Source: Eledone cirrhosa (taxonomy: Eukaryota). From it: a stretch of DNA of 64,000 nucleotides. The notes under the pieces were generated by a model. That model did no database searches. It worked only from the letters and a program-made list of their open reading frames with translations, and was not told the DNA's origin. How positions within the stretch are numbered: position 1 is the stretch's first letter; each line of letters begins with the position of its first letter. This document shows positions 17,141 through 58,545 of this stretch, piece after piece. A program made the translations under genes and the position numbers. The DNA is taken from the NCBI GenBank assembly GCA_964016885.1, contig OZ024745.1:125798001-125862000 (forward strand), in the 5' to 3' direction.

Positions 17141-17509
17141 ATTTTGTACATTACATACATACATGATGACTTGCCCCTCGTTATCGAGTATGGCCATTGC
17201 ACGAGAAAAAATAACAAAAACAAAAAATAACATACATAATAATAATAATAATAATGATTTCATTTATTGGCCACAAGGGCCGACATATAGGGGACAACAC
17301 AATAGACAGGGACAGTGGGGGTTTACATAGAGATCAAGTAAGTATAAATAACAAGAAAAACAAAATAACAATAAAAATACAACAATGAAAGTTCCCCAAT
17401 AAGAGGGATCACCACCCAGGGTTGACTCAAGCACCCCACCAGTCCTGAGCCACCCGACGCTCCTAGGGCACCCGGGAAGGGCACCCCTCTCCTTCTCGAA
17501 TTCACCAGC

Positions 17510-20500
17510 CTACAGGCGCATGATCAGAGTAGGCCCACTCACGCGGGCCATTCTCGCCACATTCACCCACCTTTCAGTAAATGTACTGGGGGGCAGCACT
17601 TCTCTCTCCACCCTCACCTTCCTTTCCAAGTGAAACTTGAAGAAGTTGATGAGGGATTGGCCGAAGAGAAAAGTGTCTGTCTTCAGTCCTTTCAACCTGG
17701 TCCACCATGCAACCTCTTTCGCTACTGCCACCAGGCAGAGGAAAATTGCCTGCCCTTCCTGACCAAAAGAAGGCGGCGGGTCAATCTTCACTATGGACTC
17801 GGACGATAGCCGGATCCGTTCTACACGCGACAATAGCTGTTCGACATAACCCCACAAGTCAGCAATGCACGGACACTGGACGAGTGCGTGCAGAACGGTT
17901 TCGTCGCTCTGCGCGCATCTCGGGCAGGTTCGTCTGACAGCACTTCCGTGCCTGTAGAGTTTATCCCGAACCGGCAGCGCCCCCCGGTAGCACTGCCAAG
18001 CGAGGGATTTCTGGAAGTTATCCATCGTCCCCGGCTCGAAAGTCCTCCGGAACATACTGGTCAGTTCTACTTCGTTGACGCCCAGAGCCTCTCCTAGTAC
18101 GTCATCGCACTTGCCCTCCACTAATCCTCTATAGAAATCTTGAGTGGAAGTTCCACTGACCGCATTGCCCACCTTGCAGAGTGCAGTGAGCGCCTGGCAA
18201 CATTCCAGATGCCAGTCGCCCAGTCTCGGTCTCTTCTTGACCCAGGACTGCAGCTCAGTCAAAGAGATGAGCTGCGGAAAGGCCCGTCTAACAAACGGCG
18301 ACCACACCTGTTCACCGTTTAGGCAAAATATCTGGAGATGTCGCAGCCTCAGCGCATGTCTGCGCATCATTAGCCACGGCATGCCCAGCCCTCCACGAAG
18401 AGGGTGCTGGCAGCAGATGGACCGCCTCACCAACGGGACCCGTCCCCTCCACAAAAATTTGAAAAGGAGCCGTTCCAAATTGGCGAGGCGTGGACGGGGG
18501 CAAGGCACGACGGTCAGGCGGTAGTAGATGACGGACGCGATGTACGCGTTCGCCACCTCCGCCCGCCCTTTCAGTGATAGCTTTCTCTCAGCCCATTTCT
18601 GGGTGAGGTTGGCTATCCTGCTCGTCACCTCGTCCCAATTCTTATCCACCTGGAGGTCTGGTCCGAACCAAACCCCGAGCAACTTTACCGGTCCGTCTGT
18701 CCAGCGCCCAACGACGCTGTTGGACGGCATGGACTTGCCTCTCCAGGTGCCGAGCTGCAAGCCCACCGACTTTTCCGGGTTAAGTTTTGCTCCCGTCAAC
18801 CTTTCATATTCCTCCAAATGGGTGCGGATCACCTCGATTTCCGAGGTGTCCGACACCATCACGGTGATGTCGTCTGCATAAGCGGACGCAGCCTTTCTAC
18901 GTCCCGGTTCGAGCGGGATGCCCTGCAACAACTCCAGCTTCCGCAGTAGAGGCTCAAGAGTCAATACGTACAGAAGTGAGGAGAGAGGGCACCCTTGACG
19001 GACCGATCGAGAGATCTGAAACGGTTCCGAGAGGTGGCCATTAACTTTGACCACCGAGCGGATGCCGCTGTACATTGCAGCGATCCAGCTTCTGAAGACG
19101 GGGCCGAAGCCAGCCGCCTCGAGGACAGCCTCCAAGTACCGATGGTCGACCCTATCGAATGCTTTCGATTGATCTAAATTGATCAGAGCCCCACCGAAGC
19201 CAGGTTTGCACCCAACCCTCTCTATGATGTATCGCATGAGGTGGAGGTTGTCGTGTATGGACCTGGTCGGGATTGCGCAAGTTTGCGCCTCCCCAACCAA
19301 ATCTTTGACGACAAGCGCCAACCTTTTCGCTAACACCTTGGCCAAAATCTTAAACTCTGTGTTGAGCAGGGTTATGGGCCTGAAATTATCTAGTGTGTCC
19401 CTCTTGTTCTCGTCTTTCCTTATCAGCGTCACTACGCCACGGCTCACAGAACTGGGAATGCTCCCGTTCTGCTGCCAGTTGCAGTAGAGCGCTTCGAGGA
19501 GATCGGAGAACAAGTCTGGCATATTTACGTAAAGCTCGTAGGGCAGACCATCCAAACCGGGTGACTTGCGACTCGAGCAGCCGACAAGGGCGTCCTGAAT
19601 TTCGGCTGATGTTATCGGCTCTTCGCAGCGCTCAGCGTCGGCCGTCGAGAGGCGTGGCAAGCCGTCGAGGTAGGGACTGAAGTCCGCCGCCATCTCCGAC
19701 TCACCCATCCTCCCGAACAATCGAGCAAAGTGCTGGCGAAAGGCCTCACACATCTGCTTGGAATCGCTCAGTTCGTGTCCATCTCGATCCGTCAAAGACC
19801 GAATTGTGGTTTTATTTCCACGCTGCGTCTCTGCAAAGCGAGCCCATCGGGCAGCTTTGGTTCCCTCGTTCCTCAGAGCACGCGCCTTAGCTCTGACAAT
19901 GCAACCTTCGTGTTTCGCATTGAAGAAATGGTCTAGTGCCATTCTCGCCGCTAGCACGTCTGTTGCAATGCCACTACAAATAGCCTCGTCTAACTTAGCT
20001 ATCAGCCCCTCCTCTTTTCTATTTTTCTCTATTGCTACTTCTTTGCTAAATCCTATCGAGGTTGCTCTAATCTCTCTTTTGAGTGCCCCCCACCACCTGT
20101 TGTTGACAACCCCCCCTGTCAACTTTTGCTTAACTAAGTTGTTGACCCGGTCCCTGTAAGCTTTACGTGCCGGAAACGACATGTTTAGCTTCCAGTAGCT
20201 AGGTCCTAACCTACGTGTCTTATCTAGGTCGACCATACAGATCACAAGCTTGTGATCTGAATAGGCAACCGTTTTAAAATGTGGACATCCTACACTATTT
20301 CTATCTCTTTTCCTAATGAAAATCCTATCTATGTACGATCTAGATGACCCTATGCGATTGGTCCAGGTCCATACTGGCGCATTAGGGAAATCTAGTCGGT
20401 ACCTGTCAGACAGTTGAAACTGGCTGATCAGGTACTTGAGGCTTTTGCACCCCCCGCTCCTATCAGATACTCCCACACAATCCCAGCGTGCTTCTAAGAT

Positions 20501-20929
20501 GCCATTCCAATCCCCTATTAACAGTAAAGGGCGAGACGTAAGCAGAAAGTTTTCCAGGCGCCTAAAGAAGTCCGGCCGACCGGCCCCAGTAGGGGCGTAG
20601 ACGGCCACCAGTCTAAAGGCACCACCTTCGCTATTGCTCACGTCCAGGACCACCAACTTTCCGTCAGGATCCCGGAAGATTGACCTTACCTCGAGATCCA
20701 GACATTTCCTAAACAGCACAGCCACTCCACCTCCCATTCCCGGCCGACTAACAGATGCAAAGATCTGATAATCGTCGAAAATCGGCGCCAGTGCGCGTGT
20801 GTCGGAAATTCTGGTCTCGCTGATGGCAATTACATCCATTCCTAGTGACCTGAGGTCGTTGAGCAAGTGACCTTGCTTCCAGGGCGACCCCAGGCCACGA
20901 ACATTTAAACTTCCTACTCTTATGGCCAT
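17510..20929 (-). CDS. LINE ORF2: AP endonuclease + reverse transcriptase + C-terminal zinc finger (1139 aa)
   Basis: APE motifs SLNVRGL, ISET, VYAP, GDWN, IDRIF, SDH. RT motifs SPGLDG, FRPITLLN, LDQSKAFDRVDH, VRQGCPLS, YADD. Zinc finger CPRC-x8-H-x4-C. WKLN and RPITLLN context typical of L1/Tx1. Confidence 0.97.
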   Translation of the reverse strand: MAIRVGSLNVRGLGSPWKQGHLLNDLRSLGMDVIAISETRISDTRALAPIFDDYQIFASVSRPGMGGGVAVLFRKCLDLEVRSIFRDPDGKLVVLDVSNSEGGAFRLVAVYAPTGAGRPDFFRRLENFLLTSRPLLLIGDWNGILEARWDCVGVSDRSGGCKSLKYLISQFQLSDRYRLDFPNAPVWTWTNRIGSSRSYIDRIFIRKRDRNSVGCPHFKTVAYSDHKLVICMVDLDKTRRLGPSYWKLNMSFPARKAYRDRVNNLVKQKLTGGVVNNRWWGALKREIRATSIGFSKEVAIEKNRKEEGLIAKLDEAICSGIATDVLAARMALDHFFNAKHEGCIVRAKARALRNEGTKAARWARFAETQRGNKTTIRSLTDRDGHELSDSKQMCEAFRQHFARLFGRMGESEMAADFSPYLDGLPRLSTADAERCEEPITSAEIQDALVGCSSRKSPGLDGLPYELYVNMPDLFSDLLEALYCNWQQNGSIPSSVSRGVVTLIRKDENKRDTLDNFRPITLLNTEFKILAKVLAKRLALVVKDLVGEAQTCAIPTRSIHDNLHLMRYIIERVGCKPGFGGALINLDQSKAFDRVDHRYLEAVLEAAGFGPVFRSWIAAMYSGIRSVVKVNGHLSEPFQISRSVRQGCPLSSLLYVLTLEPLLRKLELLQGIPLEPGRRKAASAYADDITVMVSDTSEIEVIRTHLEEYERLTGAKLNPEKSVGLQLGTWRGKSMPSNSVVGRWTDGPVKLLGVWFGPDLQVDKNWDEVTSRIANLTQKWAERKLSLKGRAEVANAYIASVIYYRLTVVPCPRPRLANLERLLFKFLWRGRVPLVRRSICCQHPLRGGLGMPWLMMRRHALRLRHLQIFCLNGEQVWSPFVRRAFPQLISLTELQSWVKKRPRLGDWHLECCQALTALCKVGNAVSGTSTQDFYRGLVEGKCDDVLGEALGVNEVELTSMFRRTFEPGTMDNFQKSLAWQCYRGALPVRDKLYRHGSAVRRTCPRCAQSDETVLHALVQCPCIADLWGYVEQLLSRVERIRLSSESIVKIDPPPSFGQEGQAIFLCLVAVAKEVAWWTRLKGLKTDTFLFGQSLINFFKFHLERKVRVEREVLPPSTFTERWVNVARMARVSGPTLIMRL

Positions 20930-20958
20930 GCTGGCAGGATGAATGGGAGAGGAAAGGT

Positions 20959-22869
20959 TTACTTACCTTCCGGGGTCTTGTGAAGGTCGGGTGGTTCGAC
21001 CTCCATGGTTTGTGGGGTTTCTTTTGGGAACCCCTTTAATAGTCTTGACGTGGGTTTTACGTTCGGGGTTCCCACATCCCGAGGAAAGCTCTTTCGAATT
21101 TCTTTGTATGAAGCGAGCGACATTCGCATCAGAAGCAAATTATCTGGTACGCGAAATGTGCTCGCTTCAAATGTTTCCCCGTCTTTTTCGATGTTTGTGC
21201 TTCGTGCTACATGGGCCATCAATTCCTTGTTGGCCCTTCTGGCAAGCACGAAGTTTTTAATGTTTTGTTGCTCGGGTTTTATTTGTTCGTGTGATTGTGG
21301 TGGTGATAGCTTTGTTAGTGTTGTTTCTATTGTGTCTGCGTTTGTTGTGGGTGGGGTGTCTGTAGTTTCTGATGTTTGTGTGTCTATTTGTTCTTGTGTC
21401 TGTTTAGCTTGTTTGCGTTTGGGGGATTTTGGTGGTTGTGTTGGTGATGCTGTGGGGAAAATGTTTGTGTGGGTGGTGTGTGTATTTTTTTTTGTGGGGG
21501 TGTTTGTGCTTTGTGGATTTCTTTTTTTTTTGTGTTTTGTTTTTTGTATTTTGGGGGACTTTGGTTTTCCCTCATCTTCACTGCTGGAGGATGAGGGGTC
21601 TGTGGCTGTGAGCGTGTTTGTGTCTGAGTGAGTGTTTATGTTCTTGTTCGTGTGTGTATTTTGGGGGGGAGGGGGAATGGGAGAGCTTTCCTCGTTTCCC
21701 CCCTGGGTGTGCAATTTTGGTGGTTCCATTGTTGACGGTGTTGCTGGTGGTCCTTGTCCCGGCGTCGCCAGCAGTGGAATCTTTCGACCCCTTGCGCTTT
21801 TCGGCAGTTGAGGGCAGAAGGCTCGCAAGTGTGTCGTTTCCCCACAAAGGAAACAATGCGGCCTTTTGCCCTCAGTCATTATATGCAACACCCTCCCGTT
21901 TTGGAGGCGGATGTGGTCCGGGATTGTTTTTACGTTTTCGGGTCTGATTTGGAGCAGTATCTCCAGATCAACCCCGGACCAGTCGTCCCTGGCAGTTCTC
22001 GTTGCCTCTACCGGGACTGTATCCGTTCCTTCCACGATTACGCAACCCAGGAGCCACCACATATCAAGTCCTGGTGGAATCCTGGGAATGCGCACACGTG
22101 CTATTCGTTTTCCCATGTGGGAGGGGTACATTATGACCTTGCTGGTTTTGCAAGGGGTCATTGAATGCTTCACAGCGAGGGCTTCAGACTTGAACAGCAC
22201 CGAAACGGTGCCGTATTGCCTGCCCCTCTCTATGAAGTCTGTGTCCTCTCTGATGTATTTCAGTGCGGCTTCTATGTCAGCTTGGGCGATTATCGCTGCC
22301 CTCTTTGTCTCTACTGAGATGCATCTGAAATGCACCGTTCTTTTTTCCACTGCCTCAATGGCTTCTGCCGGGACAGTTAAGTTTGCCCAGGTCTGCTCTT
22401 GATTTATGATTTTCCAGGCCTGGGCCAACTTTTCCTCTCTGTTGGTTAAGTCGATGCTGTAGCATGGTCTCCTTTTAGCCGCTGCCACAGCAGCGAAAGT
22501 GTTCTTGTTGGTGTTGTCACTGTTGTTGTTCTTGTTGGTGTTGCTGCTGCTATTGCTGTTGTTGTTCTCCCCTGTGTCGTGGTTTCCCTCTGTGCTGTTG
22601 GCCTTGTTGGTGCTGTTGCTGTCGCTACTATTACTCTCTGTGCTGTTTGTTTTGTTGGTGCTCTCGCTATTACCACCTTCTGCGCTGTTCGGCTTGTTGG
22701 TGTTGGTGTTGTCGCTGTTACCTACTTCCGCGCCGCTCGGCCCGTTGGTGCTGGCACTGTCGCTGCTCACACTCGTGCTGGTGGCGCTCCTCGCCTCACC
22801 TCTCCTCTCAACGCTCAAGTCGCCGTTGCACGACAGCAGACCCGCCTCTAGGGGGCGTGGCTCCGCCAT
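20959..22869 (-). CDS. LINE ORF1 (gag-like nucleic-acid-binding protein, 636 aa)
   Basis: Ends 29 bp upstream of ORF2. CCHC knuckle CFLCGETTHLRAFC, TFAAVAA motif, N/S/T-rich N-terminus and T/P/K-rich C-terminus. Confidence 0.92.
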   Translation of the reverse strand: MAEPRPLEAGLLSCNGDLSVERRGEARSATSTSVSSDSASTNGPSGAEVGNSDNTNTNKPNSAEGGNSESTNKTNSTESNSSDSNSTNKANSTEGNHDTGENNNSNSSSNTNKNNNSDNTNKNTFAAVAAAKRRPCYSIDLTNREEKLAQAWKIINQEQTWANLTVPAEAIEAVEKRTVHFRCISVETKRAAIIAQADIEAALKYIREDTDFIERGRQYGTVSVLFKSEALAVKHSMTPCKTSKVIMYPSHMGKRIARVRIPRIPPGLDMWWLLGCVIVEGTDTVPVEATRTARDDWSGVDLEILLQIRPENVKTIPDHIRLQNGRVLHIMTEGKRPHCFLCGETTHLRAFCPQLPKSARGRKIPLLATPGQGPPATPSTMEPPKLHTQGGNEESSPIPPPPQNTHTNKNINTHSDTNTLTATDPSSSSSEDEGKPKSPKIQKTKHKKKRNPQSTNTPTKKNTHTTHTNIFPTASPTQPPKSPKRKQAKQTQEQIDTQTSETTDTPPTTNADTIETTLTKLSPPQSHEQIKPEQQNIKNFVLARRANKELMAHVARSTNIEKDGETFEASTFRVPDNLLLMRMSLASYKEIRKSFPRDVGTPNVKPTSRLLKGFPKETPQTMEVEPPDLHKTPEGK

Positions 22870-23163
22870 GTTTTTTTGAGAAAAAAATTATTATTTTTTT
22901 TCAAAATAAAGTTCAAATATTTGGGCCAAAAGGCCCAAATATTATGAGTTATTCCTTCACAGGATACAAATGAAAGTCTTATAATGCTTCAACGGTACAA
23001 AAAATAAACAATTCTCTACAATTAATCCTCAAAAAATCGCTTACTCACGGAGCTTCAAAAAACGTACATCCACTTTCGTCAATAATAATAATAATAATAA
23101 CAACAATAATAATAACGATTTCTTTATAACAATAATAATAACGACAACAACAACAATAATAAT

Positions 23164-24719: not shown

Positions 24720-25045
24720 TATATAAAAATTGACTGAAGCTGTTAAAATGACAAGTCAGTCAATCATATTGATCGCCTCCCCACAGACCTGGCGGACAGA
24801 ATGGAGAAGGCGTTTCCTCGGAGAATGGTAAGGGAGATGCACTGGAAAAGCCCTTCTAGTTCGCGAGGCTCACACCTGCGGCTGGCCAGCTCAGCGCCTA
24901 TGGTGGTGAGTAGGGAGGTAGCCCTAGGGCCGAGGACACCAGAAGTCTCCACTGCCAGGGTCAGGACCGCAAACCTGTCGGAGAGCGACCGGTATTTGGA
25001 GAGTTTGGCCTCTTGAGCCCTACATGCAACAAAACCTGGGTTACA
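24720..25045 (-). mobile_element. CRE-like LINE 3' fragment (REL C-terminus)
   Basis: AVETSGVLGPRA..LL..IG..L..RRCEPRE...LFQCIS..ILRGNAFSIL; homologous to ~59320-59395. Confidence 0.7.
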
Positions 25046-25376
25046 TTATGGTTGCGATCTACCCAACACTTATGTCGATTAAATTCATCTCAATGTGTAA
25101 CTGGTACTAAAATTTATCAAACCCGTAGGGATGAAAGGCAAAGCTAACATCTGCGGCATTTGAAATCAGAACGTAAAGGGACGTAACTCTATACGGCGAA
25201 GCATGGTGTCCGACACTTTATCGATACTTCCAATACACCACCCTTCAATAGCTTAATAATCGTTTCTGATTTAGGCACAAAGACAACAATTTGAGAGAGG
25301 GGGAAGTCAATTAAATCGACCCCCCTGCATTACGGATACTTTATTTTATTGACCTTGTATGGAAGAAAGGCAAAAG

Positions 25377-25446
25377 TTCTTAGCCAAAAGATCTTAGCCA
25401 AAAGATCTTAGACAAAAGATCTTAGCCAAAAGATCTTAGCCAAAAG
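25377..25446 (-). repeat. Five tandem 14-mers CTTTTGGCTAAGAT, equal to U2 snRNA nt 14-27
   Basis: Plus strand (ATCTTAGCCAAAAG)x5 with two single substitutions. Confidence 0.93.
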
Positions 25447-25482
25447 ATAGCTTCTCGGCCTTTTGGCTAATATCAAAGTGTA
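25447..25482 (+). pseudogene. U2: U2 snRNA 5' fragment (nt 1-36), retrocopy
   Basis: ATAGCTTCTCGGCCTTTTGGCTAATATCAAAGTGTA versus recalled U2 ATCGCTTCTCGGCCTTTTGGCTAAGATCAAAGTGTA (2 mismatches). The rest of U2 is absent. Confidence 0.92.
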
Positions 25483-26543
25483 CACGAGCTTAATAATTAT
25501 TTTTACTATAGGCACAAGGCCAGCAATTTGGGGAGAAAGGAAAGTAGATTAAATCGACCCCAGTGAATTACATGTGCTTTATTTTATCAACCCCGTAAGG
25601 AGGAAAGGCAAAGCTAACCTCGGGGGATTTAACTCAGAATATAAAGGAGCGTAACTCTATGCTGCAACGCATGGTATCCGACGCTCTACCGATACTGCCA
25701 ATCCACAGCTTTATAATTGTTTCTTCGTTTGCCACAAGGCCAACAATTTCCGAGTGCATTACTGGTACTTCATTTTATCGACCCCATAAGGATGAAAGGC
25801 AAAGTCAACCTCGGCGTGATTTGAACTCAGGTGAGAGTTAATTATATTACTAAATCCTTAGTATCGATAGAGGGTTGGACGCCATACTTTGACGCATAGA
25901 GTTACGGCCCTTGCCATTCTGAGTTCAAATCTCGCCGAGGTTAACTTTGCCTTTCATCCTTACGGGGTCGATAAAATAAAGTACCAGTAATGCACTGGGT
26001 AATTACTGGCCTTGTACCAAAAGTAAAAACAATTATTTGAAAATCCTATCCAATGCTCTTCATTAGAATGATGGTAAAGAAAGGCTTAATATTGTACAAC
26101 AAGTTCAAAGATTTCAATTTGATGGACCAAATTCTGCTGAAATTATTCCACTTTACCATTGCTTCTTAAACAATAAACATGTCTCAAGGACAAACATTAG
26201 AAAATGTTACATTATTTTTTTCTTAAACCATTTCTATCTTCTCATAAAGAGTGTTCTAATCTTAATGTAAAGAGGAAAATATAGATACCAAGCCTGATGT
26301 ATATAAGAAGCAATTTAGTTTTTTTCTAAGACTATACGGGAATTGACACCATCGTCAGATTGAAACGTATCTGAAACATTTAAATAAACCTATATTTAAT
26401 AAAAGAATCCTGAAGATATATATTTCATATATCTTAAAGTTTCGGAATTAAACGTGGAATTTCCACGGATAATATACGTATATGTTTGTATATGTAAATG
26501 TTTGAGTGAATTCACACTCACACGCACATACACACACACACAT

Positions 26544-31584: not shown

Positions 31585-32304
31585 GAACAATATATATAGA
31601 AGGAACAATATATATAGAAGGAACACTATATATAGAAGGAACACTATATATAGAAGGAACTATATATATAGAAGGAACACTATATATAGAAGGAACACTA
31701 TATATAGAAGGAACACTATATATAGAAGGAACAATATATATAGAAGGAACACTATATATAGAAGGAACACTATATATAGAAGGAACTATATATATAGAAG
31801 GAACACTATATATAGAAGGAACACTATATATAGAAGGAACACTATATATAGAAGGAACAATATATATAGAAGGAACACTATATATAGAAGGAACACTATA
31901 TATAGAAGGAACACTATATATAGAAGGAACAATATATATAGAAGGAACTATATATATAGAAGGAACACTATATATAGAAGGAACACTATATATAGAAGGA
32001 ACACTATATATAGAAGGAACACTATATATAGAAGGAACACTATATATAGAAGGAACACTATATATAGAAGGAACTATATATATAGAAGGAACACTATATA
32101 TAGAAGGAACTATATATATAGAAGGAACACTATATATAGAAGGAACACTATATATAGAAGGAACAATATATATAGAAGGAACTATATATATAGAAGGAAC
32201 ACTATATATAGAAGGAACACTATATATAGAAGGAACACTATATATAGAAGGAACACTATATATAGAAGGAACACTATATATATAGAAGGAACTATATATA
32301 TAGA
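31585..32304. repeat. 18-bp minisatellite GAAGGAAC(AC/AA/TA)TATATATA, ~40 units
   Basis: Direct reading; gives the spurious (SIYSVP)n ORF. Confidence 0.97.
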
Positions 32305-33673: not shown

Positions 33674-34040
33674 GGTTTCTTATATAGGCACAAGGCCAAC
33701 AATTTTGGGGGAGGGAAAGTCGATTATATCGACCCCAGTGCGTAAGGATGAAAGGCAAAGTTAACGTCGGTGGGATTTGAACTCAGATCATAAAGGGCCA
33801 TAACTTTAGGCTGCAAAGCATAGCGTCCGACTCTCTACCGATACTGCCAATCTACAGCGCTTTTAGTGTTTCTACTTTTGTCACAAGGCCAGCAATTACA
33901 CCAGTGCATTACTGATACTTTATTTTATCGACCCCGTAAGGATGAAAGGCAAAGATAACCTCCTTGGGATTTGAACTCAGAACGTAAAGGGCCATAACTC
34001 TATGCTGCAAAGCATGGCGTCCGATACAGCCAATTCACCT
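33674..34040 (-). mobile_element. Two adjacent SINE copies inserted in the tail of an older SINE
   Basis: Consensus blocks; TTGTGCCTAAAT repeated on both sides. Confidence 0.82.
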
Positions 34041-35675: not shown

Positions 35676-36026
35676 GTGAGGGTTTTTTTACAAAATGAAA
35701 AATAACCGAGGTGTCCTACACGAGTGGAAGTATAAAGAAAAAGGGATGAAATCGAAAATGCAACCGAAGTCTTATTTTTTTTTAAAATATATATATTTAT
35801 TTGGTTCCTTTACCGGTTTCGCAGTTCTTCTGCTTTTCAAAAGGTGAGTTGAGATGGAGGGTCTGTGGTTTTTCTCACATCTGTGAGAAAAACCACAGAC
35901 CCTCCATCTCAACTCACCTTTTGAAAAGCAGAAGAACTGCGAAACCGGTAAAGGAACCAAATAAATATATATATTTTTAAAAAAAATAAGACTTCGGTTG
36001 CATTTTCGATTTCATCCCTTTTTCTT

Positions 36027-42548: not shown

Positions 42549-43128
42549 TGCGTTTGTGTGTGTGTATTATTTTCATCAAAAAGAAAGGAGAAAGGATAAA
42601 AAAGAAACATTACTTCGTGTAAAAGTTATAAGCATTCGATCTTCATTCATAGTCTCCTATATTGAAATATTTAAAAATAGGCCGAATGTCTCTCCCCCCT
42701 CCACTACCACCAGTTCTCTCTCTCTCTTTCATATAGATAGGGAGAGATGTCTCCCCACCACCACCATCTCTCTCTCTCTCTCTCTTATATATAGAGAGAG
42801 ATGTCTCCCCCCCCCTCCCCTCCACCCACCACCACCATCACCAGCTCTCTCTCCTATATAGATATATAGATAGATAGATAGATAGATAGAGAGAGAGTAT
42901 TTTATTTATCAACTTTGAAATGATGGAAGGTAAAGTTGATCTCAATGAGATTTGACGTCAGAGCGAAGTTAATCGGTAAAACTACAGCTAATTCACCGCA
43001 TTTTGTATGCAAGAAGGACATAAAATAATTCTTAATGGAAATACAAAAGTCAAAGGAGTGCATAGGGTAGTAAAATGTAGAAAAAGAATACATCGCCAAC
43101 AAATGTATATTTTGCTATATGAAATAAT

Positions 43129-43363
43129 TGTTTCTACTTTTGGCACAAGGCCAGCAATTACCATAAATAAAGTATCAGTAATGTATTGACATAAAATAAA
43201 GTACCAGTAATGTATTGACATTACTGGTACTTTATTTTATCGACCCCGTTAGGATGAAAGGCAAAGTTAACCTCGGTGGGATTTGAAATCAGACCATAAG
43301 GGGCCGTAACTCTTTGCTGCAAAGCATGGCGTCCGACCCTCTACCGATACTACCAATCCACCA
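43129..43363 (-). mobile_element. SINE with internal inverted double duplication (43163-43219)
   Basis: Consensus interrupted by two sense-orientation copies of its own core. Confidence 0.88.
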
Positions 43364-45101: not shown

Positions 45102-45500
45102 TACTTATATAAGCAAAAAATATACATTATTATATGCACACATAACGGTATGATTGTGTGCGCGTACACAAACGTGTATGTATGTGTGTGCGTACACAAA
45201 CGTGTATGTATGTGTGCCTTCATGAATACCAACTTTAATACCTTCAAATGAAACTTTATCTTCAGGTGCTACTATCTATTATAAAATTGCTATATTTCAT
45301 TTTTATCCCCAGTTAAGGCGCATTACATCTTATCTGTGGCAGATTTTGTCTTGGAATACTAATTAGGCCCCATGGCTTTAGTTGTCCGATTCCTTAGGTT
45401 CGCGTTTACGTCAACTCCACCACCTCTCTTTTTCCCTCTTCCTCCCTCGCACTTTCTCTCTGCCATCCCAACAACAACTATAATAACTTACAGTAGCAAC

Positions 45501-46345
45501 ACCACCATCATTGCCACCACCACCATTGCCACCACCACCATCATTGTCACCACCACCACCATTGTCACCACCACCACCATTGTCACCACCACCATTGTCA
45601 CCACCACCACCATCATTTCCACCATCACCACCATTGCCACCACCACCATTGCCACCACCACTATTTCAGCCATCACCATCATTGCCACCACCACCATTGC
45701 CACCACCACCACCATTGTCACCACCACCACCATTGTCACCACCACCATTGTCACCACCACCACCACCACTATTTCAGCCATCACCATCATTGCCACCACC
45801 ACCATTGCCACCACCACCACCATTGTCACCACCACCACCATTGTCACCACCACCATTGCCACCACCACCACCATTGCCACCACCACCATTGCCACCACCA
45901 CTATTTCAGCCATCACCATCATTGCCACCACCACCATTGCCACCACCACCACCATTGTCACCACCACCACCATTGTCACCACCACCACCATTGCCACCAC
46001 CACCACCATTGTCACCACCACCATTGTCACCACCACCACCACCATTTCCACCATCACCACCACCATTGCCATCACCACCATTGTCACCACCACCACCAAC
46101 ATTGCCACTACCACCATTGCCACCACCACCATTGCCACCACCACCACCACCAACATTGCCACCACCACCATTGCCACCACCACCATTGCCACCACCACCA
46201 CCATTTCCACCACCACCACCAACATTGCCACCACCACCATTGCCACCACCACCATTGCCACCATCACCAACATTGCCACCACCACCATTGCCACCACCAC
46301 CATCACCACCACCATTGCCACCATCACCACCACCATTGCCACCAC
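45501..46345. repeat. Cryptic (CAC)n-based satellite, ATTG(C/T)(CAC)n units
   Basis: Direct reading; higher-order marker CTATTTCAGCCATCACC at ~45661, 45769 and 45901. Confidence 0.95.
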
Positions 46346-46405
46346 CGCAACTACCAATACAACCTCCACCATCATATCCAGCAATAGTAGTGAGGTTAAT
46401 ATTAT

Positions 46406-47433: not shown

Positions 47434-47490
47434 TACACGCACAAAACATGCATACACACACACACACATATGTATATATATATATAATAA

Positions 47491-48281
47491 TTGTTTCTAC
47501 TTTTGGCACAAGGCCAACAATTACCCAGTACATTACTGGTACTTTATTATATCGACTCCGTAAGGATGAGAGGTTAACCTCGGCGGGATTTGAACTCAGT
47601 CTGTAAAGGGACGAAACTGTGCTGCAAAGCATGGCGTCCGACCCTCTACCGATACTGCCAATACACCGCCCTATATAATTGTTTCTACTTTTAGGCACAA
47701 GGCCAGCAATTACCCAGTGCGTTACTGGTACTTTATTTCATCGACCCCGTAAGGATGAAAGGCAAAGTCAACCTCGGCGGGATTTGAACTCAGATCGTAA
47801 AGGGACGTAACTATGCTGGAAAGCATGGCGTCCGACCCTCTACCGATACTGCCAATCCACCGCCCTATATAATAATGATATAATCCATATATAATAATTG
47901 TTTCTACTTTGGCACAAGGCCAGCAATTATCGCAGTGCATTACTGGTACTTTATTTTATCGACCCCGTAAAGATGAAAGGCAAAGTGAACCTAGGCGGGA
48001 TTTGAACTCAGAATGGCAAGGGCCGTAACTCTATGCGTTAAAGCATGGCGTCCCTCCCTCTACCGATACTGCCAATCTACCGCCCTTTGTTCTACAATTA
48101 ATTGTTTCTACCTTTGGCACAAGGCCAGCAATTACCCAGTATATTACTGGTACTTTATTTTATCCACCCTGGTAAGGATGAAAGGCAAAGTTAACCTCGG
48201 CGGGATTTGATCTCAGAATAGCAAGGGCCATAACTCTATGCGTCAAAGCATGGCGTCCGACCCTCTACCGATACTGCCAAT
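47491..48281 (-). mobile_element. Four head-to-tail SINE copies (~47491-47671, 47680-47864, 47898-48085, 48103-48281)
   Basis: Four consecutive consensus copies with distinct internal variants. Confidence 0.92.
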
Positions 48282-58187: not shown

Positions 58188-58545
58188 GTGAGGTTTTTTT
58201 GTTTTTTTTTATTTTGTAAAAATGAAAAATAACCGAGGTGTCCTACACGAGTGAAAGTATAAAGAAAAAAAGATGAAATCGAAAATGGAACTGGAGTCTT
58301 ATTTAAAAATATATATATATATTTATTTGGTTCCTTTACTGGTTTCGCAGTTCTTCTGCTTTTCAAAAGTAGAGTTGAGATGGAGGGTCTGTGGTTTTTC
58401 TCATATCTCAGATGTGAGAAAAACCACAGACCCTCCATCTCAACTCTACTTTTGAAAAGCAGAAGAACTGCGAAACCGATAAAGGAACCAAATAAATATA
58501 TATATATTTTTTTAAATAAGACTCCAGTTGCATTTTCGATTTCAT

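What the first reader, a model, noticed from the sequence alone, without database searches (positions are those of the whole stretch)
25250..25497. Single insertion of SINE + five tandem copies of U2 nt 14-27 + inverted U2 nt 1-36: reiterative template copying
Seen: TSD AGCTTAATAAT (25250-25260 / 25487-25497) brackets a truncated SINE (25261-25376), (ATCTTAGCCAAAAG)x5 (25377-25446), U2 nt 1-36 in the opposite orientation (25447-25482) and CACG. Junctions show microhomology: SINE GGCAAAAG versus unit GCCAAAAG, and AT(C) at the U2 start. Established: 3'-truncated U2 retrocopies and snRNA/retroposon chimeras arise from LINE RT template switching, and Keno and Utopia target U2 near this position. 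Inference: in one TPRT event the RT copied a 14-nt template five times, either from U2 RNA or from its own folded-back cDNA. This would be telomerase-like repeat addition creating a new minisatellite. Later slippage could account for some units.
Basis: partly seen in the sequence, partly recalled or inferred. Interest (0 to 1): 0.75.

Follow-up and report, generated by a model that had tools for sequence, protein, structure and literature searches.

The report
Twin-primed SINE-U2 insert with fold-back repeats
A jumping-gene fragment and a copy of the front end of the splicing RNA U2 sit head to head in one chromosome site, and the seam between them holds five back-copied repeats of 14 bases; it is a known kind of genomic fossil with an unusual stuttered seam, most likely copied from folded DNA rather than from RNA.

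Summary
The structure is real, and a contig from a public run spans it without gaps (possibly the source sample). The SINE lies on the minus strand, so SINE and U2 1-36 point in opposite directions: the twin-priming snRNA/retroposon chimera of Doucet 2015.

New here: the first 9 bases of the target duplication equal U2 nt 52-60 (18 of 127,978 window positions by chance), which explains why U2 was primed at this end.

The five units are a fold-back copy of the U2 cDNA. Their ends overlap by 3-4 nt on a folded DNA template but 1 nt on U2 RNA. A U2-free SINE 18 kb away has the same hairpin-plus-tandem architecture. DNA-templated snap-back, as in polymerase-theta repair, therefore fits better than telomerase-like copying of RNA.

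Open: how many units arose at insertion. Against one event: the SINE is more diverged than the U2 part, and no empty allele was seen.

The scan noted plain truncated U2 retrocopies in other genomes, not this array.

The parts
25250..25260 (.). Left copy of the 11-nt target duplication; overlaps the SINE's ATT tail
   Evidence: exact, 2 exact copies in the window
25261..25378 (-). 5'-truncated SINE with a tRNA-like head in full copies (3' ~118 nt); inferred first cDNA, made on the + strand
   Evidence: 74-79% to 6 other long-form window copies
25371..25378 (.). SINE/array join: imperfect microhomology, a sixth partial unit overlapping SINE sequence; 4-T run where 22 of the other 23 scorable copies have 3
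25377..25446 (-). Five tandem 14-nt units, U2 nt 14-27 sense on the minus strand; 3 exact, 2 with one change
25432..25474 (-). Fold-back hairpin: last unit pairs with the U2 copy, 14 of 15 pairs, 13-nt loop (U2 1-13)
   Evidence: -10.1 kcal/mol as DNA, z -4.5
25447..25482 (+). U2 snRNA nt 1-36, antisense to the SINE, RNA 5' end at the inner junction; inferred second cDNA, made on the minus strand
   Evidence: 34 of 36 to the majority of 120 U2 loci
25483..25486 (.). 4-nt filler in place of U2 nt 37-51; inverted copy of the U2 end (3 of 4 bases in the window, 4 of 4 in the X4 contig)
25487..25497 (.). Right copy of the target duplication; its first 9 nt equal U2 nt 52-60 (stem IIa loop region), the inferred priming site
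25498..25712 (-). Adjacent full-length SINE, with a third near-copy of the target motif at 25707-25717: serial insertions at one site

Best explanation
A dead, single-copy twin-primed retro-insertion whose inner seam was made by DNA-templated snap-back with repeated re-priming. All steps are inferred from sequence. (1) A LINE endonuclease cut an ATT-rich site with an 11-nt stagger; the + strand end primed on the SINE RNA tail and gave ~118 nt of cDNA. (2) The minus-strand end paired 9 bp with U2 nt 52-60 and primed U2 cDNA, which ran to the RNA 5' end. U2 nt 37-51 were skipped or lost and replaced by a 4-nt inverted filler. (3) The free cDNA end folded back with about 1 nt of pairing and copied its own nt 14-28. 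(4) This left the same 3-4 bases at both ends of the unit, so the polymerase (host polymerase theta-type, or the LINE RT acting on DNA) could slip back and copy again. (5) The end joined the SINE cDNA by imperfect microhomology. My odds: U2 primed at this target end 0.85; unit from folded DNA 0.8; SINE and U2 in one event 0.7; at least two rounds before the join 0.6; all five units at insertion 0.35, the rest by early slippage.
For: Exact 11-nt duplication around the block. Opposite orientation with the RNA 5' end at the junction matches published twin-primed chimeras, including a U2/L1 case. First 9 nt of the duplication = U2 52-60; 87 of 103 intact public U2 loci carry that 9-mer; chance 18 of 127,978 window positions, and of 177 11-mers with the same tail only 2 reach 9 nt, the number of copies of the duplication (noticed after the fact). 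The segment lies mostly in a predicted loop, where internal priming is reported. Terminal redundancy 4 nt (3 with the window's nt 3) on fold-back DNA against 1 nt on RNA. All 4 inner junctions carry U2's T27 and the SINE join has the unit's 4-T run. No change is shared between units, and unit and U2 divergence are alike (2/70 vs 2/36, p=0.6). The same architecture, a 22-23 bp perfect stem plus 2 tandem inverted copies, sits in a U2-free SINE at 43165-43240. Snap-back after full-length cDNA is reported for R2; repeated priming rounds for polymerase theta. An open two-ORF EN/RT LINE with a weakly similar 3' end lies at 17240-22887.
Against: The SINE part is 27/118 from the leave-one-out majority (14/118 private) against 4/106 for U2 plus units (Fisher p=2.6e-05 and 0.028). 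This fits an older SINE with a later U2 insertion unless the RNA came from a diverged or unsampled source; the majority rests on 6 mixed copies only. No empty allele or orthologous site was seen (1677 joints not shown). The target motif occurs three times in series, so it could belong to SINE insertions alone. The first snap-back has almost no pairing. This genome expands minisatellites unaided (18 nt x 39.9 at 31585). In the X4 contig the last unit shares the U2 copy's nt-25 change while units 1-4 do not; an all-DNA model needs a later hairpin-templated correction to explain this. The second hairpin array was seen before the scan, so that scan (2 of 16 arrays; random flanks 31 of 1600) is not a blind test.
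Confidence: 0.55

Rival explanations
1. One snap-back at insertion, array grown later. The twin-primed insertion carried a single inverted unit; the 3-4 nt redundancy and the similar SINE bases next to it let ordinary replication slippage expand it to five. This overlaps the best explanation and differs only in timing.
For: Slippage between short direct repeats yields exactly this unit and explains the fixed end point. Other minisatellites are expanded in the window. The A at 25377 matches the SINE majority base.
Against: Slippage on the longer SINE-side repeat would put A, not T, in inner junctions; all 4 have T. It also needs an extra T in the SINE run. Units share no changes, and the X4 contig has the same unit number (possibly the same individual).
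Confidence: 0.3
2. Two events. An older SINE with its own duplication was later hit by a U2 retro-capture that primed on the complementary 9-mer and deleted about 100 nt of the SINE head; repair added the fold-back units.
For: SINE divergence exceeds U2 divergence. Three serial copies of the target motif. The 4-nt filler resembles SINE head bases (weak).
Against: Of 18 window positions with a 9-nt or longer match to U2 37-70, 2 are this duplication, so a chance landing exactly there is unlikely. The two copies are 11 of 11 identical, as expected for a young event. The geometry equals the published twin-priming class.
Confidence: 0.22
3. Telomerase-like copying of U2 RNA. The SINE cDNA end jumped to U2 RNA and copied nt 27-14 four or more times on the + strand, while the last unit came from fold-back of a cDNA that carried an RT error at nt 25.
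For: In the X4 contig the last unit, and only it, matches the U2 copy's nt-25 change. If that state is ancestral, units 1-4 had a different template. RT slippage on RNA likened to telomerase is reported for the UnaL2 tail.
Against: 1-nt redundancy on RNA; no reason to stop at nt 14; RT errors are far rarer than the 3-5% later divergence (general knowledge); template-switch correction of imperfect inverted repeats is a known route to the shared base (listing only); the U2-free SINE example needs no U2 RNA.
Confidence: 0.1
4. Assembly or library artefact.
For: Both differences in the X4 contig perfect a palindrome, which can be a library effect; X5 shows no cover at 25435.
Against: A 257-nt contig at single-copy depth (8.6 against 9.5-11.2 nearby) spans all inner junctions and the right-hand copy of the duplication without gaps; units carry private changes.
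Confidence: 0.02

Closest known systems
Twin-primed snRNA/LINE chimeras (Doucet et al. 2015, PMC4476161, Group IV; passages and section 8 read)
   Same: 3'-truncated snRNA, opposite to a 5'-truncated retroposon, inside one duplication, with snRNA/target complementarity in a single-stranded region; U1, U2, U5 and U6 cases.
   Different: Partner is a tRNA-type SINE in a non-mammalian genome; a tandem fold-back array fills the inner junction; 15 nt between priming site and copied part are missing. No such array in the passages seen; figure 1B and supplements not seen.
Antisense 5S, tRNA-half and U5 chimeras with LINE-1 (Law and Burns 2026, PMC13174262; passages and section 10 read)
   Same: RNA start at the junction, truncation at about 37-46 nt, antisense, twin priming proposed.
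   Different: No junction repeats described in what I read; Table S2 not opened.
Tailless retropseudogenes (Noll et al. 2015, PMC5322556; passages and section 16 read)
   Same: Internal priming in loops; target complementary to 2-18 nt of the RNA.
   Different: Solo copies, tied to mammalian L1; here joined to a SINE and an array.
cDNA snap-back junctions of R2 insertions (Zhang et al. 2024, PMC11371274; passages read)
   Same: The cDNA 3' end primes synthesis on its own cDNA, often after full-length copying, before joining.
   Different: Engineered system; repeated short rounds were not in the passages seen.
Polymerase-theta templated insertions / SD-MMEJ (Yu and McVey 2010, PMC2943611; van Schendel et al. 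2016, PMC5068794; passages read)
   Same: Snap-back, single-nucleotide priming, multiple overlapping copies from repeated rounds, snap-back between adjacent nucleotides.
   Different: Templates are flanking DNA and copies mostly overlap irregularly; five in-register copies were not in the passages seen.
UnaL2 tail slippage (PMC1636434; passages read) and telomerase
   Same: Repeated copying of a short template with terminal redundancy.
   Different: RNA template, at initiation on the element's own tail; telomerase has a dedicated bound RNA and adds repeats as a function (general knowledge).

Membership tests
Twin-primed snRNA/retroposon chimera | snRNA piece opposite to the retroposon | tested here: met
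Twin-primed snRNA/retroposon chimera | snRNA 3'-truncated, 5' end at the inner junction | tested here: met
   nt 1-36
Twin-primed snRNA/retroposon chimera | Retroposon 5'-truncated with intact 3' tail | tested here: met
Twin-primed snRNA/retroposon chimera | One target duplication around both parts | tested here: met
   11 nt exact; 6 nt overlap the tail; a third near-copy nearby
Twin-primed snRNA/retroposon chimera | Complementarity of target end and snRNA in a single-stranded region | tested here: met
   9 nt at U2 52-60, but 15 nt beyond the copied part; this species' own U2 was not read
Twin-primed snRNA/retroposon chimera | Both parts absent together at the orthologous site | tested here: inconclusive
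   no bridging contig listed for X1 or X3; joint table cut; divergence argues against equal age
Template-switch chimera (U6/L1 type) | snRNA in the same orientation, usually full-length | tested here: not met
U2-derived SINE family | Many copies of the chimera | tested here: not met
   summed depth at 25435 is 8.6 in X4 and 0 in X5, X1, X3 (contigs are filtered, so absence is weak); 0 hits
Keno/Utopia (U2-gene-targeting LINEs) | Element inserted in a U2 gene, flanked by U2 5' and 3' parts in one orientation | tested here: not met
   one U2 hit in the window, facing a SINE; the window's LINE has ATT repeats, not U2, at both ends
Telomerase-like RNA-templated repeat addition | Terminal redundancy of the template in the RNA | tested here: not met
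   1 nt on RNA
Telomerase-like RNA-templated repeat addition | Several rounds by one RT in one event | not testable with these tools
   needs an in vitro assay or de novo insertions
Polymerase-theta templated insertion (SD-MMEJ) | Inverted or direct copies of nearby sequence with short priming overlaps and a microhomology join | tested here: met
Polymerase-theta templated insertion (SD-MMEJ) | Genetic dependence on polymerase theta | not testable with these tools
   needs mutants

The most novel reading that the evidence does not exclude
All five and a half units were written in the insertion event itself: a fully copied, capped snRNA cDNA folds back and becomes a self-resetting hairpin template with 4-nt terminal redundancy, from which a polymerase adds repeats in register. 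Retrotransposition would then give birth to complex minisatellites in one step, and hairpin-plus-tandem scars such as the one at 43165 would be a recurrent, searchable signature. In the boldest form (about 0.1) the LINE RT did this on U2 RNA, as the split state of nt 25 in the X4 contig would imply if ancestral.
Probability: 0.33. Interest if true: 0.65.

Novelty: new variant of a known kind. Interest (0 to 1): 0.42.

Why it matters
The insert itself is almost surely without function. It matters as a record of mechanism. It extends twin priming on snRNA to a SINE outside mammals and shows a 9-bp target/RNA match that explains the choice of U2. It also gives a testable route for the birth of minisatellites with complex units: fold-back creates the terminal redundancy that allows repeat addition. 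If such scars are common, they link retrotransposition, end-joining repair and tandem-repeat origin. One locus cannot show that.

Tried and rejected
No whole genome is held, so no genome-wide search for U2 fragments, arrays or the SINE's source copy was possible.

Two-unit pattern in viral contigs: 0. Fold-back junction pattern in metagenome contigs: 0; these collections hold little animal DNA, so this is no evidence of rarity.

Reads: 4 of 9 listed runs were laid, at 90% likeness. SINE copies swamped the tables and no empty allele was listed. X1 and X3 were small-share runs and gave no bridging contig. The hole in X5 at 25435 proves nothing.

ARAGORN found no tRNA gene; the tRNA-like head is my reading of the motif. 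The array scan was faulty (it missed both known arrays) and was replaced.

Rejected: a U2-derived SINE family, Keno/Utopia targeting, same-strand template switching for U2 1-36, and priming of the first snap-back through the 4-nt palindrome (it would copy nt 29 onward). LINE/SINE 3' similarity is weak for this copy (357 of 3000 random 45-mers score as well; 4-25 of 3000 for four other long copies, 138 for a short one).

Literature searches listed no paper whose title or abstract start describes a tandem fold-back array at an snRNA chimera junction. The library lacks most subscription papers and I opened no supplements. No protein complex or structure job was relevant.

Full report
Observation. 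The window shows, left to right on the + strand: an 11-nt repeat (25250-25260), 116-118 nt of SINE, five 14-nt units (25377-25446), U2 nt 1-36 (25447-25482), a 4-nt filler and the same 11-nt repeat. The repeat has 2 exact copies in the window and one near-copy at 25707. Three units are exact; units 1 and 3 each differ by one base. TRF scores the array at 5.6 copies. Rfam supports U2 at E=2.4e-05 in a local search. Against the majority of 120 U2 loci fetched from metagenome contigs the copy differs at nt 3 and nt 25; 119 of 120 loci have C at nt 3, while the Rfam consensus has A. That the genome and SINE look like an octopus is my recall and was not tested.

Orientation. Aligning window copies (34 stretches picked by BLAST, 8) shows a SINE with a tRNA-like head and an ATT tail that reads on the minus strand here. 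The copy in question keeps its tail and has lost its 5' part. SINE and U2 1-36 therefore face each other, with the U2 start at the inner junction. A U2-sense sequence on the + strand cannot be copied from U2 RNA by the + strand, so the U2 cDNA was made from the other target end. This is the twin-priming class described for U1, U2, U5 and U6 with L1 (PMC4476161, passages) and for 5S, tRNA halves and U5 (PMC13174262, passages and section 10). PMC11702581 (passages) draws the same inference for two-RNA insertions in opposite orientation.

Priming site. The first 9 nt of the duplication equal U2 nt 52-60. Of 120 loci, 103 reach nt 61 with nt 37-46 intact, and 87 of these carry the 9-mer. A match of 9 nt or more to nt 37-70 occurs at 18 of 127,978 window positions. 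Among 177 11-mers ending in the same tail, 2 reach 9 nt, the number of copies of the duplication. I noticed the match after the fact, so the true chance is some-fold higher. Most of the segment is unpaired in a fold of locus L006, and priming in single-stranded parts with target complementarity is the reported rule. U2 nt 37-51 are absent; the filler is an inverted copy of the U2 end around a 2-nt centre. Snap-back between adjacent nucleotides is noted in PMC2943611 (passages). Whether this loss happened at insertion is unresolved. This species' U2 was not read.

The array. The last unit pairs with the U2 copy over 14 of 15 positions with U2 1-13 as loop. Reiteration needs the end of a unit to resemble its start. 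On U2 RNA the overlap is 1 nt; on the fold-back DNA it is 4 nt if U2 began as in the loci, 3 nt as in the window. The overlap exists only after the fold-back junction has formed, which points to DNA-level slippage. The G just before U2 nt 1 could be the cap-derived base (an extra G is reported at full-length L1 junctions; the U2 cap is recalled). R2 cDNA snap-back after full-length copying is reported (PMC11371274, passages), and so are repeated rounds of priming by polymerase theta (PMC5068794, passages). At the SINE side the array runs into a sixth partial unit. Of 34 SINE stretches, 10 had no scorable motif; of 24, 22 have a 3-T run, 1 has one T and only this copy has four. All inner junctions have U2's T27. 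Both facts lean to at least two rounds before the join, but a single unit plus one extra T and later slippage also fits.

A second case. A full-length SINE at 43125-43362 contains a perfect 22-23 bp stem followed by two tandem 29-nt inverted copies, again with 3 shared bases at the unit ends. No U2 is involved. Of 16 non-microsatellite arrays of period 10-60, 2 have an adjacent inverted copy of 10 nt or more: this one and the finding; random flanks give 31 of 1600. I had seen this case before the scan, so it is a precedent, not a blind test.

Reads. Nine runs were listed and 4 laid, all contigs. Record 19 of X4 covers 25265-25521 without gaps at depth 8.6, near the single-copy pieces beside it (9.5-11.2). 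It differs at 25435 (C>A) and 25486 (G>T). The first makes the last unit match the U2 copy's nt-25 change across the hairpin; the second completes a 10-nt palindrome at the filler. By hand, either hit has a chance of about 0.3%. The two sites are 51 nt apart and need not be in phase, and the window's letters could be alleles or polishing errors. The simplest reading is a later change at nt 25 and a template-switch correction on one allele (a known mutation type, listing only). Summed depth at 25435 shows no multi-copy family. No empty allele was listed; 1677 joints were not shown.

Against a single event. The SINE part differs from the leave-one-out majority of 6 other long copies at 27 of 118 sites, 14 private, against 4 of 106 for U2 plus units (p=2.6e-05 and 0.028). 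The reference is small and mixed, and an old transcribed copy could have been the template, but a later U2 capture into an older SINE stays open. The three serial target motifs show that this site took several insertions.

Enzyme. A LINE at about 17240-22887 has two open frames; ORF2 carries endonuclease, RT and zf-RVT domains and is closest to human L1 ORF2p among solved structures. It ends in ATT repeats, has ATT repeats upstream, and its last 45 nt weakly resemble SINE ends. It is a candidate partner, not shown to be the enzyme; its clade was not tested.

Novelty and verdict. The backbone is a known class. The tandem fold-back seam was not found in searches, nor in scan notes (one search returned other U2 fragments). 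Supplements of PMC4476161 and PMC13174262 were not opened and may list such junctions. Telomerase-like slippage by a LINE RT is already described for the UnaL2 tail (PMC1636434, passages), so the idea is not new, and here the DNA template fits better. Verdict: real, single-copy, new variant of a known kind; interest 0.42.

Noticed in passing
window 43125-43362 (array 43165-43221): Full-length SINE with an internal 22-23 bp perfect fold-back followed by two tandem 29-nt inverted copies; same hairpin-plus-tandem architecture as the finding, without U2.
   Followed up: partly
window 17240-22887, minus strand: Two-ORF LINE with open frames (642 and 1150 aa stop to stop; endonuclease, RT, zf-RVT), ATT repeats at both ends and a 3' end weakly like the SINE's; possibly young and ATT-targeting.
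   Followed up: partly
window 25050-26036, 47487-48281, 33675-34024: SINEs stacked in series at one site; at 25713-26036 two copies lie head to head as 118-nt inverted arms.
   Followed up: no
window 35832-35930 and 58363-58455: Two near-perfect hairpins of about 90 nt that pick up weak miRNA-family matches below gathering scores; could be small inverted-repeat elements or fold-back scars.
   Followed up: no
window 31585-32304 and 45500-46346: Large minisatellites (18 nt x 39.9 at 95%; a 15/18-nt C-rich unit x about 50).
   Followed up: no
window 24770-25040: A different high-copy repeat left of the SINE cluster (very high summed depth in X4 and X5); not identified.
   Followed up: no
L077 and L098: Metagenome U2 loci in which part of the U2 5' end is repeated shortly downstream in the same orientation; may be assembly artefacts or templated junctions.
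   Followed up: no
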